From the IMG/VR virus record IMGVR_UViG_3300029219_000180: DNA of 9,281 nucleotides. One strand, 5' to 3'. Position numbers and translations under genes: made by a program. Position 1 is the stretch's first letter, and each line of letters opens with the position of its first letter. The notes beneath the pieces are model-generated. The model saw only the letters and a list, made by a program, of their open reading frames with translations. It did not search any database and was not told the DNA's origin. Source of the stretch: a virus (lineage: Duplodnaviria > Heunggongvirae > Uroviricota > Caudoviricetes). This document shows positions 1 through 9,281 of the stretch, one piece after another.

Positions 1-196
1 AGGTATGCCTGAAAGCGTGCGTATTGCCTGAAAACACAACCCGCTACGGGGGAGACTTACCCGAAATCTGATTTATTCAACAAAGCCACCTTTATGCCAT
101 AACTGAAGTTTATGTCTGTTATGAGCGATGAGCGGAAGTTCACTACTTCATGACTAACATTGAAGTGTCCTAAGCAACGGGGAGCAGCTCAAGGAG

Positions 197-222
197 TGTG
201 TTAGTGCAATTACACTAACACA
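197..222. repeat. Perfect inverted repeat: 10-bp stem (tgtgttagtg / cactaacaca) with 6-nt loop
   Basis: Read directly: 197-206 tgtgttagtg, loop caatta 207-212, 213-222 cactaacaca. Lies 37 bp 3' of the stop of the minus-strand 488-aa gene. The flanking A-run is on the plus strand, so it does not look like a classical terminator for the minus-strand gene. Confidence 0.5.
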
Positions 223-258
223 GCTACTAAAAATAAAAATACCAAAACTACAGTTATT

Positions 259-1725
259 CTATGCGCCTGGATTGGGTTCGATCATACTCAGCGTTTTTGC
301 TATTTTCTTAATCTCATCATCATTATCCAAAAAAGAGGCGTCTTTTATTACCACAGTACGCTCTTCTTGTAATAGCTCACCTATTTTTTCTTCTATAAAA
401 TCTAATGTTGGCATTATAATCTGGATGTCTCGAGAAAAAGTAGTTTTTGCATCTTCTATACTGTTGAATCCATTATGTATATGAGTGAATATTCTCTTTT
501 TAAACTGTATGTCTTCTGGATTTCCCACTAACTGACTGAAATCTCCTTTCATAACTCTTTCGCTTGTTTCAAAGAGCTGTATTGCTATCGAGTCGATTAA
601 TTCCTTTTTGGACAGAGATGCTTGTTCATAAAATTTGGTGACTAACTCTGTTGGCAACTTTCTTGAGACGACTTTAATGGACAGTCTCTGAAATAGGTAA
701 GGTGCCACCACGCCCACACTGAAAGGGTGAATCCTCCCTGGATTTAATAATTTTATTGTGACGTTTTCAAAAACTAGCTCATTGATTTTACTATTTATGA
801 ATTCCATTAAATACTTATCTAATGATAATGTTACCGACGCAACCGCTTCTATCACTTGTTTAAATGGCTCGCCTTTCAAGGATTTAAAAAACTCTTTGTT
901 ATAACCAAAGAAATCCACAAAACCTAAATTTATTCGATTTTCTTCTTTAGTATTTGAAATGCGAATTTGAAGTTGTTTTAAGTCTTCATCGGTCAAGTAT
1001 TTTAAACCATAGTCATCAAGCGCGTTACGTATAACTTTATCTGCAGATTCTAAGTCGATTACAGTTTTTACATTAAAAAACAATGATAACAATGAATCAT
1101 ACTTATGAACTCGCAAGGTTAAATCTGTTGCATTTGATGCGGTTACATTTATCCGTCTCAAAAGATCAATAACTTTACTAATTGGTAGGCTGTTTTCAAA
1201 AATTTTGAATGACTCGTATTCAGATACAACATCTTTTATATACTTACTGATAGTATCAGACTTTATTTCCACCTCAACTTCGGTTGAGTAAGAATGAATT
1301 AGTGAGTTTGTAGTTTCAGCGATGTCATTTGATACATACAACTTATATTCGAAACAATCAGGAGCGGGAAGCAAACTATTATCAATAATGGAAAACAATA
1401 AAAATTTAATTATTTCTCTTAATGCTTGCGGTCTAGTTATTCTACCTTGCATTTTTTTACATTGTATTAAACCACTTACAACACCGTTATGGTATAGCAC
1501 GCAGTCGCGTCCTCTTTCAGAAACTCCTTGCATTAAAGATATTGAGGATATATTTTTATGCTTTCCATCTTCAATTTCGTTCTTTACTAACAAATAACAT
1601 AGCAACTCAAATTCTCGATCACCTAATTCTGAAAAGGGAAGCAATCCGATACCAGAATCTATAGTCCATGGTCTATATCCTGATTGAGCCTCGATATTAA
1701 TTTGTTCGTCACTGATTTTTTTCAC
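259..1725 (-). CDS. Hypothetical protein with N-terminal Mrr-cat / PD-(D/E)xK-like (DUF4297-like) nuclease motif and uncharacterised C-terminal ~380 aa; candidate defence effector
   Basis: 488-codon ORF, by far the longest in the AT-rich block (~30% GC in sampled lines). Start codon is GTG (plus-strand cac at 1723-1725) preceded by Shine-Dalgarno AAGGAGA with 5-nt spacing. N-terminal residues 38-108 show the pattern FELLCYLL ... GVSERGRD (D74) ... LIQCKK (Q88, K90) ... RPQALREI, which matches the D...(E/Q)xK arrangement of Mrr-type restriction endonuclease catalytic domains. Family assignment is from motif recognition only. Confidence 0.8.
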   Translation of the reverse strand: MKKISDEQINIEAQSGYRPWTIDSGIGLLPFSELGDREFELLCYLLVKNEIEDGKHKNISSISLMQGVSERGRDCVLYHNGVVSGLIQCKKMQGRITRPQALREIIKFLLFSIIDNSLLPAPDCFEYKLYVSNDIAETTNSLIHSYSTEVEVEIKSDTISKYIKDVVSEYESFKIFENSLPISKVIDLLRRINVTASNATDLTLRVHKYDSLLSLFFNVKTVIDLESADKVIRNALDDYGLKYLTDEDLKQLQIRISNTKEENRINLGFVDFFGYNKEFFKSLKGEPFKQVIEAVASVTLSLDKYLMEFINSKINELVFENVTIKLLNPGRIHPFSVGVVAPYLFQRLSIKVVSRKLPTELVTKFYEQASLSKKELIDSIAIQLFETSERVMKGDFSQLVGNPEDIQFKKRIFTHIHNGFNSIEDAKTTFSRDIQIIMPTLDFIEEKIGELLQEERTVVIKDASFLDNDDEIKKIAKTLSMIEPNPGA

Positions 1726-1730
1726 TTAAA

Positions 1731-1737
1731 TCTCCTT
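1731..1737 (-). promoter_or_regulatory. Shine-Dalgarno (AAGGAGA) for the GTG-initiated 488-aa CDS
   Basis: Plus strand tctcctt at 1731-1737 is AAGGAGA on the minus strand, 5 nt upstream of the GTG at 1725-1723. Confidence 0.6.
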
Positions 1738-2040
1738 CTAATCTTATTGACCTACTCCCTACATTGTAACAGGGGATGATGATAAGGTGTATCTTTCGAG
1801 CTATAAGCACGATAAATAAGTGATTAAAAATGACTCTTTAAACTATTTTAATTTAAAAAATTAATTGTTAGTTCTAATTATGGTATGAGGGCATTTTCGG
1901 CATAGTTCTAACCATATACTTTGGTAAAAATGACTGTTACGGAACAGACCATAGTAATGCCTGCTATTGGCACGGAGCGGGCTGCCTGAGCGCCGTGGGG
2001 TCTGCAAACGGTAAGCATACCGATAACTATACGCTTGGCC

Positions 2041-2460
2041 TTAGTAACTTTTGCTCCCCTCAATAAATCCGCCATCTTTTATCGGACTGCAATGTCCTTC
2101 TTCATCAATCAGTTGCTCGTCTTTCAGGTAGGTATATCGATAGATAATTGAGCCATTATCCATCTCACCATTGGTTCGTTTCATTAGGAGAGTAAAATGT
2201 AACGGGCTGTCCCTATATCGAGCTATTCCATGAATATTGGCAAGTACCTCATATTGACGCTCAGGTGATAACCCTTTAAATACATCGAGATATCCATGGA
2301 ATGTTCCATAGAGTGAAGAAGTGTAGATCAGTCGCTGCTCTGGACCAGTAACTTTAAGAGTAATTTGTTCACCCGTATTACAGGTTAGCTTGGCGGGAAA
2401 TGTCTCAGCCTGAGCAGAAGAAATAGTCAAGCTTAAAATTATCAGGTAGCAATATTTCAT
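2041..2460 (-). CDS. Small secreted/periplasmic hypothetical protein (139 aa) with Sec-type signal peptide
   Basis: The six-frame ORF is 2041-2562, but the internal Met at 2460 starts a canonical signal peptide MKYCYLIILSLTISSAQA|ETF (basic n-region, hydrophobic core, AQA cleavage motif). The upstream 34 codons have no such logic. No strong SD at either start. Function not recognised. Confidence 0.55.
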   Translation of the reverse strand: MKYCYLIILSLTISSAQAETFPAKLTCNTGEQITLKVTGPEQRLIYTSSLYGTFHGYLDVFKGLSPERQYEVLANIHGIARYRDSPLHFTLLMKRTNGEMDNGSIIYRYTYLKDEQLIDEEGHCSPIKDGGFIEGSKSY

Positions 2461-2740
2461 GTGATTAGAATGTCCAAAACTAACATGTATACTCGGGATT
2501 CTATAACTAGTTGGATGTAGACCCAAGATGTATTGGACTATTCTTCGGTTGTAGTTGGTCAAATCATATATTTTATGTCAGCAATGTCTACTTTTGGCAC
2601 ATAGCAGACCAGAGACACTGGCGTAAAGCCATGGAGGATCGGTGGGAGGAGGTAAAAATCCTCTCATGCAAAAAATACGCAAAATCGATAACAGTTGGAA
2701 ATCATTCAATACTCGCACTATCGGAAGTTCACCAGCCAGT

Positions 2741-2778
2741 CGTAGCACGTTCTTGCATATGACGTGGCTACGGGTTTC
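2741..2778. repeat. Copy A of imperfect hairpin-containing direct repeat (cgtagcacg-loop-cgtggctacg-ggtttc)
   Basis: 2751-2778 tcttgcatatgacgtggctacgggtttc aligns with 3775-3800 tcttgcatacgacgtgctacggtttc (25 identical positions, two 1-nt indels, one mismatch). The upstream agcacg is also shared. Internal inverted repeat cgtagcacg / cgtggctacg. Confidence 0.7.
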
Positions 2779-2868
2779 GAGACCGACCCGATCATCAAAC
2801 GAAACATAAAATTAGCTCACATTATGAGGAAAGGTATCTTTTTGCGCTATGTAAATTCAAAGGGTTAG

Positions 2869-3738
<870 letters not shown>

Positions 3739-3761
3739 GTCTTTAAGTGATAAGCATAAAC

Positions 3762-3800
3762 CGCAGCACGATCTTCTTGCATACGACGTGCTACGGTTTC
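3762..3800. repeat. Copy B of the hairpin-containing direct repeat; candidate bidirectional terminator between convergent GIY-YIG and pin genes
   Basis: cgcagcacg-atcttcttgcatacga-cgtgctacg followed by gtttc. Lies between the GIY-YIG stop (3736-3738) and the pin stop (3799-3801), overlapping the latter. Confidence 0.65.
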
Positions 3801-4353
3801 ATTTATCTCCGACCGGAAACTTCTTATACAGTGTCGATATACCAACATCATAGATGATCGCCACCTTCTGGCGAGGAACGCCTGATGCAATTAATCGCCC
3901 GGCCTGCGCCCATTGTTCTGGTGTAAGTTTGGGACGACGTCCACCAATTCGTCCCTGTGCGCGAGCAGCTTCCAGTCCAGCTTTTGTTCGTTCAACAATC
4001 AGTTCTCGTTCCATTTCAGCCAGGGCACCCATGACATGAAAAAAGAAACGGCCCATTGGGGTACTGGTATCAATACTGTCAGTCAGGCTTCGGAAATTCA
4101 CGCCACGCTGGCGCAACTCTTCTATCAGCGTAACAAGATGCCGCATACTGCGCCCTAACCTGTCCAGCTTCCAGACAACCAGAGTGTCACCTGCCGATAA
4201 TGTCCTGAGCAGTTTTTTCAGTCCGGGCCTTTCGGACTTCGTACCGCTTATCTTGTCTTCAAAAATCAGTTCACATCCTACACAGTTCAACGCATTACGT
4301 TGTAGATCGGTGTTCTGGTCATTTGTTGATACGCGTACATAGCCAATAAGCAT
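3799..4353 (-). CDS. pin: Pin/Gin/Hin-family DNA invertase (serine recombinase)
   Basis: Protein from the internal Met ([18 protein letters not shown]...) has the resolvase/invertase N-terminal catalytic motif (YVRVST, catalytic Ser) and a C-terminal HTH ([41 protein letters not shown]). It is near-identical in pattern to E. coli e14 PinE as recalled. The ORF track extends to 4389, but the conserved start is the ATG at 4353. Confidence 0.93.
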
Positions 4354-4379
4354 GGTGGATCTCCCTGACAAAAGCAGGA

Positions 4380-4754
4380 ATGATGCCATTTGCTCGTTAT
4401 TTCTGCATTTTCATAAACGTTGGTTTGGGAGAAGCGGCAAAACGGAATGTGGGAACAGGGGAAAATCAGATACCTGATATGTCATCATATGCATCAGGTT
4501 CAGGCTGGCGAAAAATGCCAGATGGTTCAATTGAACAGTGGGGACGAATTAGTTTTCCTGGTGAACACGGGCCTGTATCCGCCAATGTTTCATTCCCGAT
4601 TCCATTTACACAGACACCGGGCATTGTAATTGTGTGCGATGGTGGTTTCGGGGGCGGGAATATGTGGGGGGCGACCAACTGGAGCACTACCGGCTTCATA
4701 GCTCACTGCAATTATGGTCTTGAAGGTGGTGCGTTTTTCGCTAAGGGCTGGTAA
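4380..4754 (+). CDS. Tail-fibre protein C-terminal variable segment (gene fragment lacking the constant N-terminal part; probably not expressed as annotated)
   Basis: Contains the motif [14 protein letters not shown], typical of phage tail-fibre receptor-binding C-termini (recalled W-x-K-L-P-x-G-x-I-x-Q-W-G pattern), and a Gly-rich tip. The reading frame runs through the gix-like site, as for invertible tail-fibre segments. No upstream constant region in the window. Stop overlaps the next start (TAATG). Confidence 0.55.
4408..4433. other. gix/hix-like 26-bp invertase crossover site
   Basis: TTTTCATAAACGTTGGTTTGGGAGAA matches the recalled Hin/Gin site consensus TTnTCnnAAACCnnGGTTTnnGAnAA at every specified position but one (C to G at position 12). 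Located about 55 bp from the pin start and inside the 5' end of the tail-fibre segment reading frame, as in Mu/P1/e14 invertible segments. Confidence 0.6.
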
Positions 4755-5251
4755 TGATGAAATATCTGTACGTAAACAACCTGGCATATCCTTACGAACT
4801 TCAGTCTCTTTATGTTGAAAAAGGTGAATGGCCTGAAGAAAAAGGTGTTGATATAGACGAAGTAATTTTCAGGGAATATTTCTATGATACACCACCAGAA
4901 GGAAAATACAGATGTGTCGGAGAGGATGGACTGCCTGCATGGGCAGACATCCCCGCGCAACTGAAACGCCTTCTTCCTGACTATAAACGGATGGAAGAAA
5001 AAATAGACGCCGTAATCCGTGAGAAATACGGGTTACCCCCGGTTATGAGCACGCCCGTGAAATATGCCGATCTCATCATGCTGGCAACCGAACGCCGCGA
5101 TCTCGGGCTTGATGATGGCTCTTTCTGGCCTCTACTGGAAGGTATCCCAGCAACAGAGATGTTCAAAGTTATTCCACTGTCGCCAGGCCATGCCTACGGG
5201 ATGTTTATGGAACGTTTTAACGAGTTATCGGAGTTACGCAAATGCGCATGA
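4754..5251 (+). CDS. Hypothetical phage protein (positionally a tail-fibre assembly/chaperone candidate)
   Basis: 165-aa ORF translationally coupled to the tail-fibre segment (TAATG) with an AAGGG SD-like sequence upstream. Sequence does not show the conserved Tfa C-terminus I recall, so the function is by position only. Confidence 0.55.
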   Translation: MMKYLYVNNLAYPYELQSLYVEKGEWPEEKGVDIDEVIFREYFYDTPPEGKYRCVGEDGLPAWADIPAQLKRLLPDYKRMEEKIDAVIREKYGLPPVMSTPVKYADLIMLATERRDLGLDDGSFWPLLEGIPATEMFKVIPLSPGHAYGMFMERFNELSELRKCA

Positions 5252-5604
5252 ATGTTTTCGAAATGGAAGGGTTTCTTCGCGGGAAATGTGTACCGCGAGA
5301 TCTGAAAGTGAATGAAACGGATGCTGAATACCTGGTGCGTAAATTCGATGCGCTTGAAGCTAAATGTGCGGCACTGGAAAACAAAGTAATACCAGTGTCA
5401 ACTGAACTGCCACCAGCAAATGAAAGTGTTTTGTTATTCGATGCTAACGGAGAAGGCTGGCTAATTGGCTGGCGTTCTCTCTGGTACACCTGGGGACAAA
5501 AAGAAACCGGAGACTGGCAGTGGACATTTCAGGTCGGGGACCTTGAAAACGTCAATATCACTCACTGGGCAGTAATGCCAAAAGCACCGGAGGCTGGAGC
5601 ATAA
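5242..5604 (+). CDS. DUF551-like phage protein
   Basis: C-terminal region WYTWGQKETGDWQWTF...ITHWAVMPKAPE resembles the DUF551 signature (Trp-rich, ending ThW-x-P-x-P) found in enterobacterial prophage early regions. GGAG SD 8 nt upstream; overlaps the previous stop. Confidence 0.65.
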   Translation: MRMNVFEMEGFLRGKCVPRDLKVNETDAEYLVRKFDALEAKCAALENKVIPVSTELPPANESVLLFDANGEGWLIGWRSLWYTWGQKETGDWQWTFQVGDLENVNITHWAVMPKAPEAGA

Positions 5605-5909
5605 TGACCACTTTTACCGACAAAGAACTGATTAAAGAAATCAAAGAGCGTATCAGCAGCCTTGACGTGCGAGACGATATTGAGCGCCGTGCTTATGAAA
5701 TCGCACTCCTATCTCTGGAAGTAGAGCCAGATGAACGCGAATCCTATGAATTATTTATGGAAAAACGTTTCGGTGGCTTAGTAGATAGTCGGAGAGCAAA
5801 AAACGGCGATAACGAATACATGGCATGGGATATGACTCTCGGTTGGATCGTCTGGCAACAACGAGCTGGCATTCATTTTTCAACAATATCACAGCAAGAG
5901 GTGAAATAA
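5604..5909 (+). CDS. Hypothetical phage protein (101 aa)
   Basis: ORF with a TGGAG SD-like sequence upstream. Start overlaps the DUF551 stop (TAATG) and its stop overlaps the xis start (TAATG), so it is translationally coupled within the operon. Confidence 0.55.
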   Translation: MTTFTDKELIKEIKERISSLDVRDDIERRAYEIALLSLEVEPDERESYELFMEKRFGGLVDSRRAKNGDNEYMAWDMTLGWIVWQQRAGIHFSTISQQEVK

Positions 5910-6259
5910 TGGAACCATACAGCCTCACGCTAGATGAGGCCTGTCATTTTCTCAAGATATCCAGACCGACTGCCATTAACTGGATACGCACAGGGCGTCT
6001 GCAGGCAACACGCAAAGATCCCACTAAGAATAAATCTCCTTACCTCACAACACGACAAGCCTGCATTGCGGCGCTTCAGTCTCCGCTGCATACTGTCCAG
6101 GTGAGCGCGGGTGATGGCATAACAGAGGAAAGAAAATGTCACTCTTCCGCAGAGGTGAAATATGGTACGCCAGTTTCACATTGCCGAACGGTAAAAGATT
6201 TAAACAGTCTCTTGGAACAAAGGACAAAAGGCAGGCGACAGAACTCCATGACAAGCTAA
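5909..6259 (+). CDS. xis: Excisionase / AlpA-family DNA-binding protein (P22 Xis-like)
   Basis: From the ATG at 5909 (GAGGTGA SD upstream): [31 protein letters not shown]..., an HTH typical of excisionases, located immediately upstream of int. Its 3' end overlaps int by 124 nt in another frame. Confidence 0.75.
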
Positions 6260-7299
6260 AGGCTGAAGCATGGCGGGTCAGCAAACTTGGTGAAATTCCT
6301 GATATAACGTTCGAGGAAGCGTGTGTCAGGTGGCTTGAAGAGAAAGCACATAAAAAATCACTGGACGATGACAAAAGCCGGATCGGATTCTGGCTTCAAC
6401 ATTTCGCAGGAATGCAACTAAGAGACATTACTGAATCAAAAATTTATTCAGCAATGCAGAAAATGACGAACCGGCGTCATGAGGAAAACTGGAAACTCAG
6501 GGCAGAAGCATGCAGAAAAAAAGGGAAACCTGTTCCAGAATACACGCCAAAACCAGCGTCCGTTGCAACGAAGGCTACGCATCTTTCATTTATAAAGGCC
6601 CTGCTAAGAGCCGCAGAGCGTGAATGGAAAATGCTGGATAAGGCACCAATTATTAAAGTGCCTCAACCAAAGAATAAACGGATCCGCTGGCTGGAGCCTC
6701 ATGAAGCACAAAGGCTGATTGATGAATGTCCGGAGCCATTAAAGTCTGTTGTTGAATTTGCACTTGCAACAGGCTTAAGACGCTCGAACATCATCAACCT
6801 TGAATGGCAACAAATAGACATGCAGCGCCGGGTGGCATGGATAAACCCGGAAGAGAGTAAATCAAACCGCGCAATTGGCGTTGCGCTGAATGATACTGCA
6901 TGTCGCGTATTGAAAAAACAAATCGGGAATCATCACCGTTGGGTATTTGTGTATAAGGAAAGCTGTACCAAACCAGACGGAACGAAAGCGCCAACAGTCA
7001 GGAAGATGCGGTATGACGCAAACATAGCCTGGAAAGCGGCGCTGAGACGAGCAGGTATTGATGATTTCAGATTTCACGACTTGAGACACACCTGGGCAAG
7101 TTGGCTGGTTCAAGCCGGAGTCCCGTTATCAGTGTTACAGGAAATGGGAGGCTGGGAGTCTATCGAAATGGTTCGTCGATATGCTCACCTCGCACCTAAT
7201 CACCTTACCGAACACGCACGGCAAATAGACTCGATTCTGAACCCATCGGTCCCAAATTTGTCCCAGTCAAGAAATAAGGAAGGTACTAATGATGTGTAA
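6136..7299 (+). CDS. int: Tyrosine-type phage integrase (P22-like)
   Basis: N-terminus [34 protein letters not shown] is typical of P22-family integrases. Catalytic residues present: [14 protein letters not shown] (Arg), [10 protein letters not shown] (H-x-x-R), MVRRYAHL (Tyr). GAGGAAAG SD upstream. A tRNA-Thr att core follows directly. Confidence 0.93.
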
Positions 7300-7313
7300 C
7301 TTATTGATTTAAA

Positions 7314-7362
7314 TGGTGCCGATAATAGGAGTCGAACCTACGACCTTCGCATTACGAATGCG
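7314..7362 (-). other. Attachment-site core: 3'-terminal 49 nt of tRNA-Thr(CGU) (partial tRNA, not a functional gene)
   Basis: Reverse complement reads CGCATTCGTAATGCGAAGGTCGTAGGTTCGACTCCTATTATCGGCACCA: anticodon loop with CGT, T-arm GGTTCGACTCC and acceptor 3' strand with CCA. The flanking sequence at 7363-7390 does not encode the D-arm or 5' acceptor strand, so the tRNA is incomplete. Confidence 0.8.
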
Positions 7363-7450
7363 TAAATTGATCTTGTAAAATCAATACCTATCGAATTTAA
7401 ATGGATTTTTTGCCACAATATTGCCACAGTTCGTTAGGAATCAGACAGAA

Positions 7451-8524
7451 ATGGCGACTATACGCAAACGTGGTAACTACCAATGGGAAGCTCAAATCCG
7501 TAAACGTGGTTTTCCCTCTCAAACCAAAACCTTTAACACCAAAGTAGAAGCAGAAGCTTGGGCCAAAATGATCGAGTCAGAAATGGCGAGAGGAGTTTGG
7601 CTTAGCCGCAGCGAAGCGGAATCTACGACATTGTATGAAGCCCTAACGCGATATGAAAAAGAGATTGTTCCCGACAAAAAAGGGGCAGTGCAAGACCGAT
7701 CATTGGTGCGGATACTAAAAGGCACTCAGCTGGCGAAAAACTATATGGCCAGCATCAGGAGTGCCGATGTCGCCAAGCTGAGAGATGAATGGTTGAAAAT
7801 CTATGCTCCTGCAACCGTTTTAAGGCGTTTGGCCTTACTTTCTCATGTATTCAATGTTTCGCGGAAAGAATGGGGCATGGAGAGCCTGCTGAACCCCGTA
7901 GAGGCCATTCGCAAACCCCAACCCAAGAACTCCAGGACCAGACGCCTGGAAGCGCTGCCTGTAGTTTCTGAGAAAACCGGTGTTACGTCAGGAAAGCAAA
8001 TAGCCAACGAGATCGAACATATCATCGCCGCAACACATTCATTAGTATTGCCAGCAATCATTCTTCTGGCGTTAGAGACAGCCATGCGCCGTAGCGAAAT
8101 CGCAGAGCTTCGATGGCGCTTTATCGATCTTGATCGGCGAGTTGCACATCTGCCGGATACTAAGAATGGTAATGCCCGCGATGTCCCTTTATCAACGAAA
8201 GCCATTACGATACTGTCCAGTCTCAAGGAACATTCTAAGCCAGCTGCTGATAAGGTTTTTGATATGCGTGCAGACGCGATTACCCGAGCTTTTGACCGAG
8301 CTGTAAAACGAGCCAGAGAACGATACGAGAAAACAAACTCATTATGTGATGAATCTTTCCTTAAAGATTTAAGATTTCATGACCTTCGACATGAAGCAAC
8401 TTCTCGACTTGCTGAAATTTTCCCTATGCATGAACTAACCAAAATTACAGGACATAAAGATCCAAGAATGCTAATGCGGTATTATCATCCAAAAGCTGAA
8501 GATTTGGCGTTAAAGTTGAAATAA
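7451..8524 (+). CDS. Tyrosine-type site-specific recombinase/integrase (second, distinct family)
   Basis: From the ATG at 7451 (the ORF-track M at 7421 is a TTG): MATIRKRGNYQWEAQIRKRG N-terminus typical of island integrases. Catalytic residues present: ETAMRRSEIAELRW (Arg), HDLRHEATSRL (H-x-x-R), RMLMRYYH (Tyr). Unrelated in sequence to the upstream P22-like int. Confidence 0.88.
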   Translation: MATIRKRGNYQWEAQIRKRGFPSQTKTFNTKVEAEAWAKMIESEMARGVWLSRSEAESTTLYEALTRYEKEIVPDKKGAVQDRSLVRILKGTQLAKNYMASIRSADVAKLRDEWLKIYAPATVLRRLALLSHVFNVSRKEWGMESLLNPVEAIRKPQPKNSRTRRLEALPVVSEKTGVTSGKQIANEIEHIIAATHSLVLPAIILLALETAMRRSEIAELRWRFIDLDRRVAHLPDTKNGNARDVPLSTKAITILSSLKEHSKPAADKVFDMRADAITRAFDRAVKRARERYEKTNSLCDESFLKDLRFHDLRHEATSRLAEIFPMHELTKITGHKDPRMLMRYYHPKAEDLALKLK

Positions 8525-8533
8525 GGACGTTGT

Positions 8534-9223
8534 ATGGATTATAAAAATAAGTTAGTTGATGCATCACCAAAATTAAACAACCCTCAACTATTGGCTATAA
8601 TATACTTAATACCTTTTGGATACTTGATTGTAGAAAACCCATTATGGCTAGAAAATATATACATTGCCGCTCCAATTTTCCTATCATCTATAGCTTTATT
8701 AACCAGTGTATACATAGGATATCGTGATTTATTAAATAAAGTATTTAATAATGCAGTAGTTAAATGGGGCGTAACTGGCTTTACATATTCCGTATGCTTA
8801 TGGATCGCAAAGTTTAAGCTTGACATAGCTTATGGTATAGTCCCAGAAAACCTTAATTACTCGACATTAGCTTATGCTTTCATGCTCTCATTTCCAATAG
8901 GGGCAATGATTTGTGCAATTACAGTCTATATATACATATTTTTGCGAGATGTATCCCCAGCAAAAATAGTAATATCCTCTATGATTTCAGTATATATTGG
9001 AAGCTTGGCTCAACATCATATACAGGTGAACAATCTTCCTGAAAAAATAATATTAATAGGACTTATAATTATGGTCCCCTATAACATGGTCAATTTAGCT
9101 AGTTCATTAGTTATTAAAAGGAAATTTAATTTTAATCGTTTAGTATCAGGCTTATCCCTTTTTGCTGTGTCAGTTGCTCTTTTTATTATTAGCATGACAG
9201 CGGTAATGACTCCAACTTATTGA
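8534..9223 (+). CDS. Polytopic inner-membrane protein of unknown function (229 aa), very AT-rich
   Basis: AAGGA SD 6 nt upstream of the ATG, 9 bp after the integrase stop. About five or six hydrophobic helix-length segments (e.g. LLAIIYLIPFGYLIV, IYIAAPIFLSSIALLTSVYIGY, AMICAITVYIYIFL, IILIGLIIMVPY, LSLFAVSVALFIISMTAV). About 23% GC in a sampled line. Confidence 0.7.
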   Translation: MDYKNKLVDASPKLNNPQLLAIIYLIPFGYLIVENPLWLENIYIAAPIFLSSIALLTSVYIGYRDLLNKVFNNAVVKWGVTGFTYSVCLWIAKFKLDIAYGIVPENLNYSTLAYAFMLSFPIGAMICAITVYIYIFLRDVSPAKIVISSMISVYIGSLAQHHIQVNNLPEKIILIGLIIMVPYNMVNLASSLVIKRKFNFNRLVSGLSLFAVSVALFIISMTAVMTPTY

Positions 9224-9281
9224 TAGTGTTTTATGTTCAGATAATGCCCGATGACTTTGTCATGCAGCTCCACCGATTTTG

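What the first reader, a model, noticed from the sequence alone, without database searches (positions are those of the whole stretch)
7314..7362. 49-nt tRNA-Thr(CGU) 3' fragment sandwiched between two different integrase genes: likely tandem integration at one att site
Seen in sequence: the fragment matches the anticodon loop through CCA of a tRNA-Thr(CGU), and the 5' half of the tRNA is absent. Upstream is a P22-like int ending 14 bp away; downstream (~90 bp) a second, unrelated tyrosine recombinase begins. Established knowledge: P22-family integrases target thrW and the att core is the tRNA 3' segment; tandem island arrays form by successive integrations into duplicated cores. Inference: two elements are arranged head-to-tail around this core. 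The intact tRNA is expected beyond the right edge of the window.
Basis: partly seen in the sequence, partly recalled or inferred. Interest (0 to 1): 0.55.

Follow-up and report, generated by a model that had tools for sequence, protein, structure and literature searches.

The report
Shared thrW att site between two islands
The 49-base piece of a threonine tRNA gene is the shared attachment-site scar where a decayed P22/SfIV-type prophage abuts a second, unrelated mobile island, both inserted one after the other into the E. coli thrW gene; this is a well-known kind of arrangement.

Summary
Window 7314-7362 (minus strand) is identical, 49 of 49, to nt 28-76 of E. coli thrW, tRNA-Thr(CGU). It starts 14 nt after the stop of int1 and ends 88 nt before the ATG of int2.

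- **Left of the fragment:** the int-side arm of Shigella phage SfIV attP. int1 is 99.5% identical to SfIV Int and 89% to P22 Int. The first 46 nt are the SfIV/P22 core.
- **Right of the fragment:** the arm of a second element, B, whose own tRNA repeat is 49 nt.
- **Each element occurs alone.** Strain 0H26 has A next to an intact thrW. Strains A23 and H1 have B without A. Sixteen of 5,426 complete E. coli genomes have the same sandwich. In Z0117EC0040 the intact thrW lies 18.7 kb to the right.
- **int2 in other genera:** close homologs in Enterobacter and Pantoea carry the same 49-nt fragment. Three loci also show an intact tRNA-Thr at the island's far end.

In this window both elements are remnants. 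A has a ~31 kb internal deletion and ends at an IS903-type end; IS1 cuts B at 9202. Tandem integration at thrW is already documented, so interest is low. RefSeq's "tRNA-Ser" call here is an artefact.

The parts
1..87 (.). Terminal part of an IS903-family (IS5-like) insertion sequence; it replaces the outer end of prophage remnant A
   Evidence: matches features annotated as IS903B-family transposase in about 2,000 E. coli records; identity to the 0H26 prophage starts at window 88.
88..7313 (.). Element A: a 7.2-kb remnant of an SfIV/e14-like thrW prophage. It runs from the distal cargo end to int, with a ~31.15 kb internal deletion.
   Evidence: 88-4953 is 99.96% identical to 0H26 L002 12279-17144, and 4946-7362 is 100% identical to 0H26 L005 19792-22208; in 0H26 these are the two ends of one ~38.6-kb prophage between thrW and a 46-nt thrW fragment.
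259..1725 (-). 488-aa ORF of unknown function in the prophage cargo slot; low G+C (31-35%)
   Evidence: No Pfam or NCBIfam family. Only weak PADLOC hits to LmuA and WYL (E about 0.004).
2914..3738 (+). GIY-YIG protein matching the anti-phage defence gene PD-T4-3; cargo of element A
   Evidence: PADLOC PD-T4-3, E = 2.7e-140. LEM-3-like GIY-YIG domain.
3799..4389 (-). pinE-type serine invertase
   Evidence: Resolvase plus HTH_7 domains; annotated pinE in 0H26.
4380..4754 (+). Tail-fibre C-terminal segment (gp53-like C)
4754..5251 (+). Fusion ORF across the deletion joint: tail-fibre-assembly N-terminus joined to the C-terminus of a YfdR-like HD hydrolase. The two BLAST segments overlap at 4946-4953.
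   Evidence: the two segments overlap by 8 nt; the 0H26 annotations on either side; no complete E. coli genome holds this joint.
5909..6259 (+). Excisionase (xis) of element A; the ORF is open from 5825
   Evidence: phrog_2907 excisionase, E = 1.3e-50, residues 29-144. HTH_17. SfIV annotates the equivalent gene as excisionase.
6136..7299 (+). int1: P22/SfIV-family tyrosine integrase of element A, full length
   Evidence: 99.5% identical to SfIV Int and 89% to P22 Int. The nucleotide sequence is 100% identical to the 0H26 prophage.
7300..7313 (.). 14-nt spacer; start of the int-side (P') arm of A's att site
   Evidence: the same spacer follows int in SfIV attP (1 mismatch) and a related one in P22 attP.
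7314..7362 (-). thrW 3' fragment (tRNA nt 28-76), a hybrid att site. 7314-7359 is the 46-nt P22/SfIV core, serving as attL of A. The whole 49 nt is the repeat of element B, serving as attR of B.
7363..7450 (+). int2-side arm of element B, carrying two TTGCCACA repeats (7410-7417 and 7421-7428, 11-bp period); candidate Int2 arm-type sites
   Evidence: the pair is conserved upstream of int2 homologs. A second TGCCACA pair sits in the tRNA-proximal arm of B in L001, L004, L008, L009 and L021.
7451..8524 (+). int2: tyrosine integrase of element B (357 aa)
   Evidence: Pfam Phage_integrase; at most 41% identical to any deposited phage integrase; 92-99% identical in Enterobacter and Pantoea.
8534..9223 (+). 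Membrane-protein ORF that travels with int2, here cut by IS1. Only the first 224 of about 296 residues are native.
   Evidence: phrog_26661, profile positions 1-224 of 296; 97% identical next to int2 in L007 and L020; a 296-aa version follows int2 in Z0117.
9202..9281 (.). End of an IS1 copy that interrupts element B
   Evidence: 98.8-100% identical to the ends of annotated IS1 copies in strain H1; the same IS1 junction occurs in H1.

Best explanation
The fragment is a shared attachment-site scar in a tandem array of integrative elements at thrW. Two elements with different tyrosine integrases both recombine within the 3' part of the tRNA-Thr(CGU) gene. Each integration regenerates the tRNA at the proA side and leaves a displaced 3' copy at the far side. 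Element B (int2; 49-nt repeat) lies between the intact thrW, to the right of the window, and this fragment. Its int2 gene and int2-side arm abut the fragment's 5' side. Element A (a P22/SfIV-family prophage; 46-nt core) starts at the fragment's CCA side, with its P' arm, int1 and xis. The site is therefore attR of B and attL of A at once. Int2 would pair it with thrW to excise B. Int1 plus Xis would pair it with A's distal 46-nt copy to excise A. Shown: the sequence identities, the hybrid arms, and the independent occurrence of each element. Inferred: the activity of the enzymes, the TGCCACA repeats as Int2 arm sites, and the order of arrival, which the structure cannot tell. In this window the array is a fossil. 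A has lost ~31 kb internally and its outer end is replaced by an IS903-type element. B is cut by IS1 1.84 kb from the core.
For: The 49/49 identity to thrW ends abruptly. The left flank equals the SfIV attP int-side arm, and the first 46 nt equal the SfIV and P22 attP core, which then diverges to TATAAGAA in the phages but continues GCG as in the tRNA here. The 23-bp core annotated in the P22 record (21300-21322) corresponds to tRNA nt 38-60 and lies wholly inside the fragment. A alone: in 0H26, proA-thrW is followed after 14 nt by the int gene (identical DNA) and a 38.6-kb prophage, and a 46-nt fragment carrying the SfIV gtr-side arm lies 223 bp beyond the DNA that matches window 88. B alone: strains H1 and A23 have the fragment plus int2 with other DNA on the left. 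Both together: Z0117EC0040 has thrW, then an 18.77-kb B, then the 49-nt fragment, then A, then a 46-nt fragment, then a third island with its own integrase. Sixteen of 5,426 complete genomes have the junction. The opposite order also exists: in H1 a P22-type prophage is tRNA-proximal and B is distal. int2 homologs (92-99% identical) in Enterobacter, Pantoea and a MAG have the 49-nt fragment ending GCG|TAAATT at the same distance upstream, with Pantoea-type substitutions in Pantoea. Three of these islands (2.7, 7.7 and 10.9 kb) are closed by an intact tRNA-Thr(CGU). Paired TGCCACA repeats occur in both arms of B. Literature: a 46-bp attP and thrW targeting for SfIV (PMC3851460); experimental tandem SfI+SfX integration at thrW (PMC3306764); the Islander definition and counts of tandem arrays (PMC4383910).
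Against: The window's own genome was not found among the complete E. coli genomes, so the intact thrW and the further core copies are inferred from relatives. The window holds no second core copy. IS elements bound both remnants, so neither element can be shown to be excisable here. No excision, circular form or Int2 activity has been observed. No recombination directionality factor for B was identified. A simple sigma-70 scan found no promoter for int2 in the arm.
Confidence: 0.9

Rival explanations
1. There is one element with two integrases. The fragment would be the attP or att scar of a single phage or island that carries both int1 and int2.
For: The two int genes are only 151 nt apart and on the same strand. 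The same pair recurs in 16 E. coli genomes and, as a remnant, in Enterobacter vonholyi.
Against: Free SfIV and P22 genomes have gtrA, not int2, after the core. 0H26 has int1 next to thrW without int2. H1, A23, Enterobacter and Pantoea have the fragment plus int2 without int1. Sequence identity to each partner set switches exactly at the edges of the fragment.
Confidence: 0.03
2. It is a real, unusual tRNA gene, namely the 112-nt 'tRNA-Ser' that RefSeq annotates over the fragment plus 63 nt upstream.
For: PGAP annotates tRNA-Ser at this spot in every genome listed with the junction. Rfam's tRNA model gives a weak hit at 7321-7388 (22.3 bits).
Against: ARAGORN finds nothing. The Rfam score is below the gathering score of 29, and the hit borrows only the thrW anticodon and T arms. 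The supposed 5' part is B's arm carrying the TTGCCACA repeats. Mis-listing of integration-derived tRNA fragments as tRNA genes by tRNAscan-SE is a documented error class (PMC9897764).
Confidence: 0.01
3. thrW was simply destroyed. Under this reading, insertion of the int2 element or a deletion removed the 5' half of the only local thrW copy, with no duplication and no tandem array.
For: The window contains only one copy and no intact tRNA. IS1 and IS903-type elements show the locus has been rearranged.
Against: In every relative where the int2 side can be followed, an intact tRNA-Thr(CGU) closes the island. The break point after 49 nt (GCG|TAAATT) is the same across genera, as expected for site-specific recombination and not for random truncation.
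Confidence: 0.03
4. It is an assembly artefact, with contigs wrongly joined through the repeated 46-49 nt core or through the 8-nt overlap at 4946-4953.
For: No complete genome contains the whole window or the 4946-4953 joint. The window is a mosaic of 0H26-like and H1-like DNA.
Against: The int1|fragment|int2 junction itself is present in 16 complete, mostly long-read-era genomes at 96-99% identity. A 49-nt repeat is shorter than typical assembly k-mers (own knowledge). The doubt applies only to the internal deletion joint, not to the finding.
Confidence: 0.03

Closest known systems
Tandem SfI + SfX prophages at thrW in Shigella flexneri (Sun et al. 2011, PMC3306764)
   Same: The target gene is the same (thrW, downstream of proA). 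Both have a displaced tRNA 3' core between two integrated elements. In that study the second element entered at the attL of the first, giving a shared att site.
   Different: There both elements are complete serotype-converting phages, and integration was produced experimentally. Here the tRNA-proximal element is a non-phage island with a distant integrase (29% identical to int1) and a 49-nt rather than 46-nt repeat, and both elements are decayed.
P22 / SfIV / SfI / SfV attP-int-xis module
   Same: int1 is 89% identical to P22 Int and 99.5% to SfIV Int. The 46-nt core, the 14-nt spacer after int and an overlapping xis gene are all shared.
   Different: The gtr (O-antigen) cargo on the other arm is absent. 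This lineage carries PD-T4-3 and unknown ORFs in the cargo slot, and most of the prophage is deleted.
Tandem island arrays at tDNAs as catalogued by Islander/TIGER (PMC4383910)
   Same: [quoted passage not shown] In Z0117EC0040 the array has three members.
   Different: Nothing differs in principle. Whether these particular islands are already in that database could not be checked.
CP4-6 cryptic prophage at thrW in E. coli K-12
   Same: It is another occupant of the same hotspot. CP4-6-type genes (ykfI, yafW and others) lie beyond the 46-nt fragment in 0H26. That K-12 has these genes next to thrW is from my own knowledge.
   Different: It is a different element and integrase, and it is not present in the window.
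KplE1 (CPS-53) attL / intS promoter overlap (PMC2951348)
   Same: It is a possible analogy only. The int2 upstream region lies inside the att arm, and its candidate arm-type repeats sit 22-40 nt before the ATG, so Int2 binding could also regulate int2.
   Different: This was not tested. No promoter was predicted, and that paper appeared only in a search listing and was not read.

Membership tests
Functional tRNA gene (tRNA-Thr, or the RefSeq 'tRNA-Ser') | A complete cloverleaf with acceptor stem and D arm, recognised by tRNA finders | tested here: not met
   ARAGORN finds no gene. The Rfam tRNA hit scores 22.3 bits against a gathering score of 29. Only nt 28-76 of thrW are present.
P22/SfIV-type prophage attL | The 46-nt core identical to the phage attP and to the thrW 3' end | tested here: met
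   7314-7359 is identical to the SfIV and P22 attP segments.
P22/SfIV-type prophage attL | The int-side (P') arm and the int and xis genes directly adjoin the CCA side of the core | tested here: met
   The spacer and the int 3' end match SfIV attP. int1 is 99.5% identical to SfIV Int and 89% to P22 Int. xis matches phrog_2907.
P22/SfIV-type prophage attL | A partner attR (a 46-nt copy with the other phage arm) at the far end of the same prophage | tested here: not met
   The window has no second copy, and an IS903-type end sits where the last ~223 bp plus attR lie in 0H26. The partner is present in the relatives 0H26 and Z0117. It may lie beyond the IS in the source genome.
int2-type thrW island (element B) attR | A 49-nt tRNA-Thr(CGU) 3' repeat ending GCG|TAAATT about 88 nt upstream of the int2 ATG | tested here: met
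   The window and five loci from other genera share this layout.
int2-type thrW island (element B) attR | An intact tRNA-Thr(CGU) in the same orientation at the other end of the island, with the conserved proximal arm | not testable with these tools
   This lies outside the window, because IS1 interrupts B at 9202. It is met in Z0117, L008, L009 and L021.
Tandem array at a tDNA (Islander definition, PMC4383910) | [quoted passage not shown] | tested here: inconclusive
   Within the window there are two integrases but only one fragment. The criterion is fully met in Z0117EC0040, which has the same junction.
Tyrosine recombinase (both int1 and int2) | A Phage_integrase catalytic domain with the Arg, His-x-x-Arg and Tyr motifs | tested here: met
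   Pfam PF00589 scores E = 2e-47 and 1.5e-26. The aligned motifs are RRS, HDLRH and RY(A/Y)H.

The most novel reading that the evidence does not exclude
Element B would be an undescribed family of small thrW-specific islands, made of int2, a conserved membrane protein, a 49-nt core and paired TGCCACA arm repeats, and as short as 2.7 kb in Pantoea. It would preferentially end up next to P22-type prophages and be moved together with them, for example by composite excision or packaging through the shared hybrid att site, as reported for phage-ICE tandems in other bacteria.
Probability: 0.05. Interest if true: 0.5.

Novelty: already known. Interest (0 to 1): 0.15.

Why it matters
It matters mainly for annotation. 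The fragment marks the exact boundary between two mobile elements. It explains a recurrent RefSeq "tRNA-Ser" mis-call. It also shows that in this genome both elements are IS-bounded fossils rather than active units. More widely it is one more example of thrW as a hotspot shared by several integrase families, where different strains stack the same elements in different orders. The less-studied int2 island family, with its clean 49-nt repeat and conserved arm repeats across Escherichia, Enterobacter and Pantoea, could serve as a simple model for target choice. It is not a new principle.

Tried and rejected
- **Second core copy in the window:** searched with up to 3 mismatches; none found.
- **tRNA finders:** ARAGORN found nothing, and Rfam was sub-threshold only. 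I therefore rejected the RefSeq tRNA-Ser annotation.
- **Source genome:** searching the whole window and the 4946-4953 deletion joint against 5,426 complete E. coli genomes found no genome with either. The source could not be identified and the flanks could not be read.
- **Promoter and terminator scan of 7200-7500:** nothing found, so the idea that the int2 promoter overlaps the arm repeats stays untested.
- **Unknown ORFs:** Pfam, NCBIfam, PHROGs and PADLOC gave no family for the 488-aa and 173-aa ORFs, and only weak PADLOC hits.
- **Literature on the int2 island** (terms thrW, trbJ, integrative, mobilizable): nothing specific found.
- **Order of arrival of A and B:** considered, then rejected as undecidable, because both orders give the same junction. 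Strains with the opposite stacking exist.
- **ATTTAAATGG repeat** at 7307 and 7395 as an older att relic: considered. The left copy is not conserved in SfIV or P22, so I treat it as probably chance.

Full report
**1. The observation**

Window 7314-7362 reads TGGTGCCGATAATAGGAGTCGAACCTACGACCTTCGCATTACGAATGCG. Its reverse complement is the last 49 nt of E. coli thrW, tRNA-Thr(CGU). The same 49-mer occurs inside the annotated tRNA-Thr next to proA in E. coli Z0117EC0040 (L001 40030-40078 of tRNA 40030-40105). Base-by-base extension shows that identity stops exactly after 49 nt. In tRNA numbering this is nt 28-76, from the second position of the anticodon stem to CCA. ARAGORN finds no tRNA gene in the window. 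A 20-mer of the fragment is unique in the window and never appears in shuffles.

int1 (6136-7299) stops 14 nt before the CCA end. int2 starts at the ATG at 7451, 88 nt from the other end, and this start is conserved in homologs. The only refinements are that the tRNA is on the minus strand and that the two integrases are distant relatives rather than unrelated (29% identity over the catalytic domain).

**2. The left side: element A**

- int1 is 99.5% identical to the integrase of Shigella phage SfIV and 89% identical to P22 Int over all 387 residues.
- The ORF that overlaps its start is an excisionase (phrog_2907, E = 1.3e-50).
- In the free phage genomes the int stop is followed by the same short spacer and then by the same 46 nt of thrW. 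After that the phages diverge into TATAAGAA… toward gtrA.
- In the window everything up to 7359 follows SfIV attP. The next three bases (GCG) continue the tRNA identity rather than following the phage, and from 7363 the DNA is unrelated to either.
- The 23-bp attP core annotated in the P22 record (21300-21322) maps to tRNA nt 38-60, which is inside the fragment.
- The SfIV paper reports a 46-bp attP identical to that of SfI and SfV, and integration into thrW (PMC3851460).

**3. Element A is a remnant here**

BLAST against fetched loci shows two matches to strain 0H26. Window 88-4953 is 99.96% identical to one end of a thrW prophage there, and 4946-7362 is 100% identical to the other end. In 0H26 these ends are 31.15 kb apart. 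The layout there is proB-proA-thrW(intact)-14 nt-int-xis-…-tail genes-pinE-PD-T4-3-488-aa ORF-46-nt thrW fragment carrying the SfIV gtr-side arm, followed by CP4-6-type genes.

The window's copy therefore has an internal deletion. The two matches overlap by 8 nt at 4946-4953, and the joint creates a fusion ORF of a tail-fibre assembly protein with an HD hydrolase (4754-5251). No complete E. coli genome has this joint. At the far end, identity to 0H26 begins at window 88, which lies 223 bp short of where the 46-nt attR copy sits in 0H26. Window 1-87 is the end of an IS903-family element. A's partner site is therefore not in the window.

**4. The right side: element B**

int2 (357 aa) has the Phage_integrase domain and is at most 41% identical to any integrase in the phage collection. 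The following ORF matches positions 1-224 of the 296-position PHROG family 26661. It is cut by an IS1 end that starts at 9202. Strain H1 has the same IS1 junction.

Several observations show that this side is a separate element:

- In E. coli H1 and A23 the fragment plus int2 have quite different DNA on the left and no int1.
- Sequence identity to these strains starts at about 7297, just left of the fragment's CCA-side edge at 7314.
- A scan of one genome per species with int2 found 92-99% identical homologs in Enterobacter vonholyi, E. quasiroggenkampii, two Pantoea and an Enterobacterales MAG.
- All five have a 49-nt tRNA-Thr(CGU) 3' fragment ending GCG|TAAATT at the same distance upstream of the ATG. 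In Pantoea the fragment carries Pantoea-type substitutions.
- In three of them an intact tRNA-Thr(CGU) in the same orientation closes the island 2.7, 7.7 or 10.9 kb to the right.
- Both arms of B carry a pair of TGCCACA repeats with 11-bp spacing in the same orientation. In the window these are at 7410-7417 and 7421-7428. The proximal-arm pairs sit about 90-100 nt from the tRNA end in L001, L004, L008, L009 and L021.

I read these repeats as Int2 arm-type binding sites. That reading is an inference.

**5. The array**

Z0117EC0040 has the same int1|fragment|int2 junction at about 99% identity. Its order is phoE-proB-proA-thrW, then B (18.77 kb, with int2 at the far end), the 49-nt fragment, A (int1 through pinE, carrying Avs2 as cargo), a 46-nt fragment, and a third island with a 645-aa integrase.

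The exact junction (at least 80% of 7150-7520) occurs in 16 of 5,426 complete E. coli genomes, and the fragment plus int2 alone occurs in many more. E. vonholyi has a P22-type int remnant left of its fragment, so the same sandwich exists in another genus.

In H1 the stacking is reversed. A 46-nt fragment there has a P22-type prophage arm on its tRNA side and B's proximal arm on the other, so the phage is proximal and B is distal. The elements therefore arrive independently and in either order.

For the window's junction, two histories give the same sequence and cannot be told apart: A first and then B into the regenerated thrW, or B first and then A into B's displaced 49-nt copy.

**6. Mechanism**

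The site is attR of B and attL of A at once. It consists of the B arm, the 49-nt core (which contains the 46-nt A core) and the A P' arm. Int1 with Xis would recombine it with A's distal copy. Int2 would recombine it with thrW. The sequence relationships are shown; the enzyme activity is inferred from family membership and from the integrity of both genes. In this window excision of either element is doubtful, because A's partner site is missing or displaced by an IS, and IS1 interrupts B.

**7. Comparison with what is known**

- thrW is listed among the most used tDNA hotspots in E. coli (PMC7545054).
- SfI and SfX have been shown experimentally to integrate in tandem at thrW, with SfI entering at the attL of SfX (PMC3306764).
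- Islander defines tandem arrays by exactly the features seen here and counted 125 of them in 2,168 genomes (PMC4383910).

The finding is an instance of a known phenomenon. I found no paper describing the int2 island family, but I cannot exclude that it is catalogued.

**8. The RefSeq "tRNA-Ser"**

Every genome listed with the fragment plus int2 carries a 112-nt tRNA-Ser annotation over window-equivalent 7314-7425. ARAGORN rejects it. Rfam gives 22.3 bits against a threshold of 29, and that hit uses only the thrW anticodon and T arms. The supposed 5' part is B's arm. This is the error class described in PMC9897764.

**9. Verdict**

The arrangement is ordinary and already known. Interest is 0.15.

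Noticed in passing
window 7314-7425 (minus strand); L001 21215-21326, L004 20018-20129, L024 16018-16129: RefSeq (PGAP) annotates a 112-nt 'tRNA-Ser' over the thrW fragment plus 63 nt of island DNA in every listed E. coli genome that has this junction. ARAGORN and Rfam do not support it, so it looks like a systematic mis-call.
   Followed up: yes
window 2914-3738 (+): The GIY-YIG ORF is a strong match to the anti-phage defence gene PD-T4-3 (PADLOC E = 2.7e-140). It sits in the cargo slot between pinE and the prophage's distal att site. Z0117EC0040 carries Avs2 in that slot and SfIV carries gtrABC.
   Followed up: partly
window 259-1725 (-) and 2041-2562 (-): A 488-aa ORF and a 173-aa ORF lie in very low G+C DNA (31-40%) next to PD-T4-3. 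They have no Pfam, NCBIfam or PHROG family and only weak LmuA and WYL hits. They may be further defence cargo.
   Followed up: partly
window 4754-5251, joint at 4946-4953: A fusion ORF (tail-fibre assembly N-terminus joined to an HD-hydrolase C-terminus) marks a ~31.15 kb deletion of the prophage, across an 8-nt overlap between the two BLAST segments. No complete E. coli genome has this joint.
   Followed up: partly
window 7410-7417 and 7421-7428; also L001 39931/39942, L008 12500/12511, L009 20710/20721, L021 17546/17557: Paired TTGCCACA/TGCCACA direct repeats with 11-bp spacing lie just upstream of int2 and again in the tRNA-proximal arm of the island. Similar pairs precede int2 homologs only 58-69% identical (Yersinia, Thiobacillus). 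They are likely integrase arm-type sites.
   Followed up: partly
window 7307-7316 and 7395-7404: An exact 10-nt repeat, ATTTAAATGG, flanks the fragment, with one copy in the phage arm and CCA edge and the other in the island arm. The island copy is conserved in other genera, but the phage copy is not exact in SfIV or P22. It is unexplained and possibly chance.
   Followed up: no
window 8534-9223 (+); L007 11084-11755; L008 11085-11603: A polytopic membrane protein of unknown function (phrog_26661) always follows int2: 97% identical in Enterobacter and in Pantoea sp. 1.19 (L020), and 23-27% in the two Pantoea loci with full-length int2 (L008, L010). In the 2.7-kb Pantoea island it is almost the only other gene. 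Here IS1 cuts it at 9202.
   Followed up: partly
L006 6490-8560 (Z0117EC0040): A third thrW fragment (46 nt) is followed by a third island with a 645-aa integrase, which makes a three-member array at thrW in that strain.
   Followed up: partly
L013 (Thiobacillus denitrificans) about 9865-9910; L017 9819-9894: More distant int2 homologs (61-67% identical) sit next to a different tRNA. L017 has an intact tRNA-Ala(CGC) on the same strand. L013 has a 3' fragment with a CGC anticodon loop on the opposite strand. This suggests target switching within the integrase family.
   Followed up: no
L004 21921-25290 (E. coli H1): In H1 most of element B is replaced by an IS1-corA-IS1 segment, and 118 bp of B's proximal arm survive next to a 46-nt fragment and a P22-type prophage. 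The window shares the first IS1 junction.
   Followed up: partly
window 3799-4754: A pinE invertase lies next to a tail-fibre C-terminal segment and a tail-fibre assembly gene. This is the usual e14/Mu-type invertible host-range switch, here stranded by the deletion.
   Followed up: no
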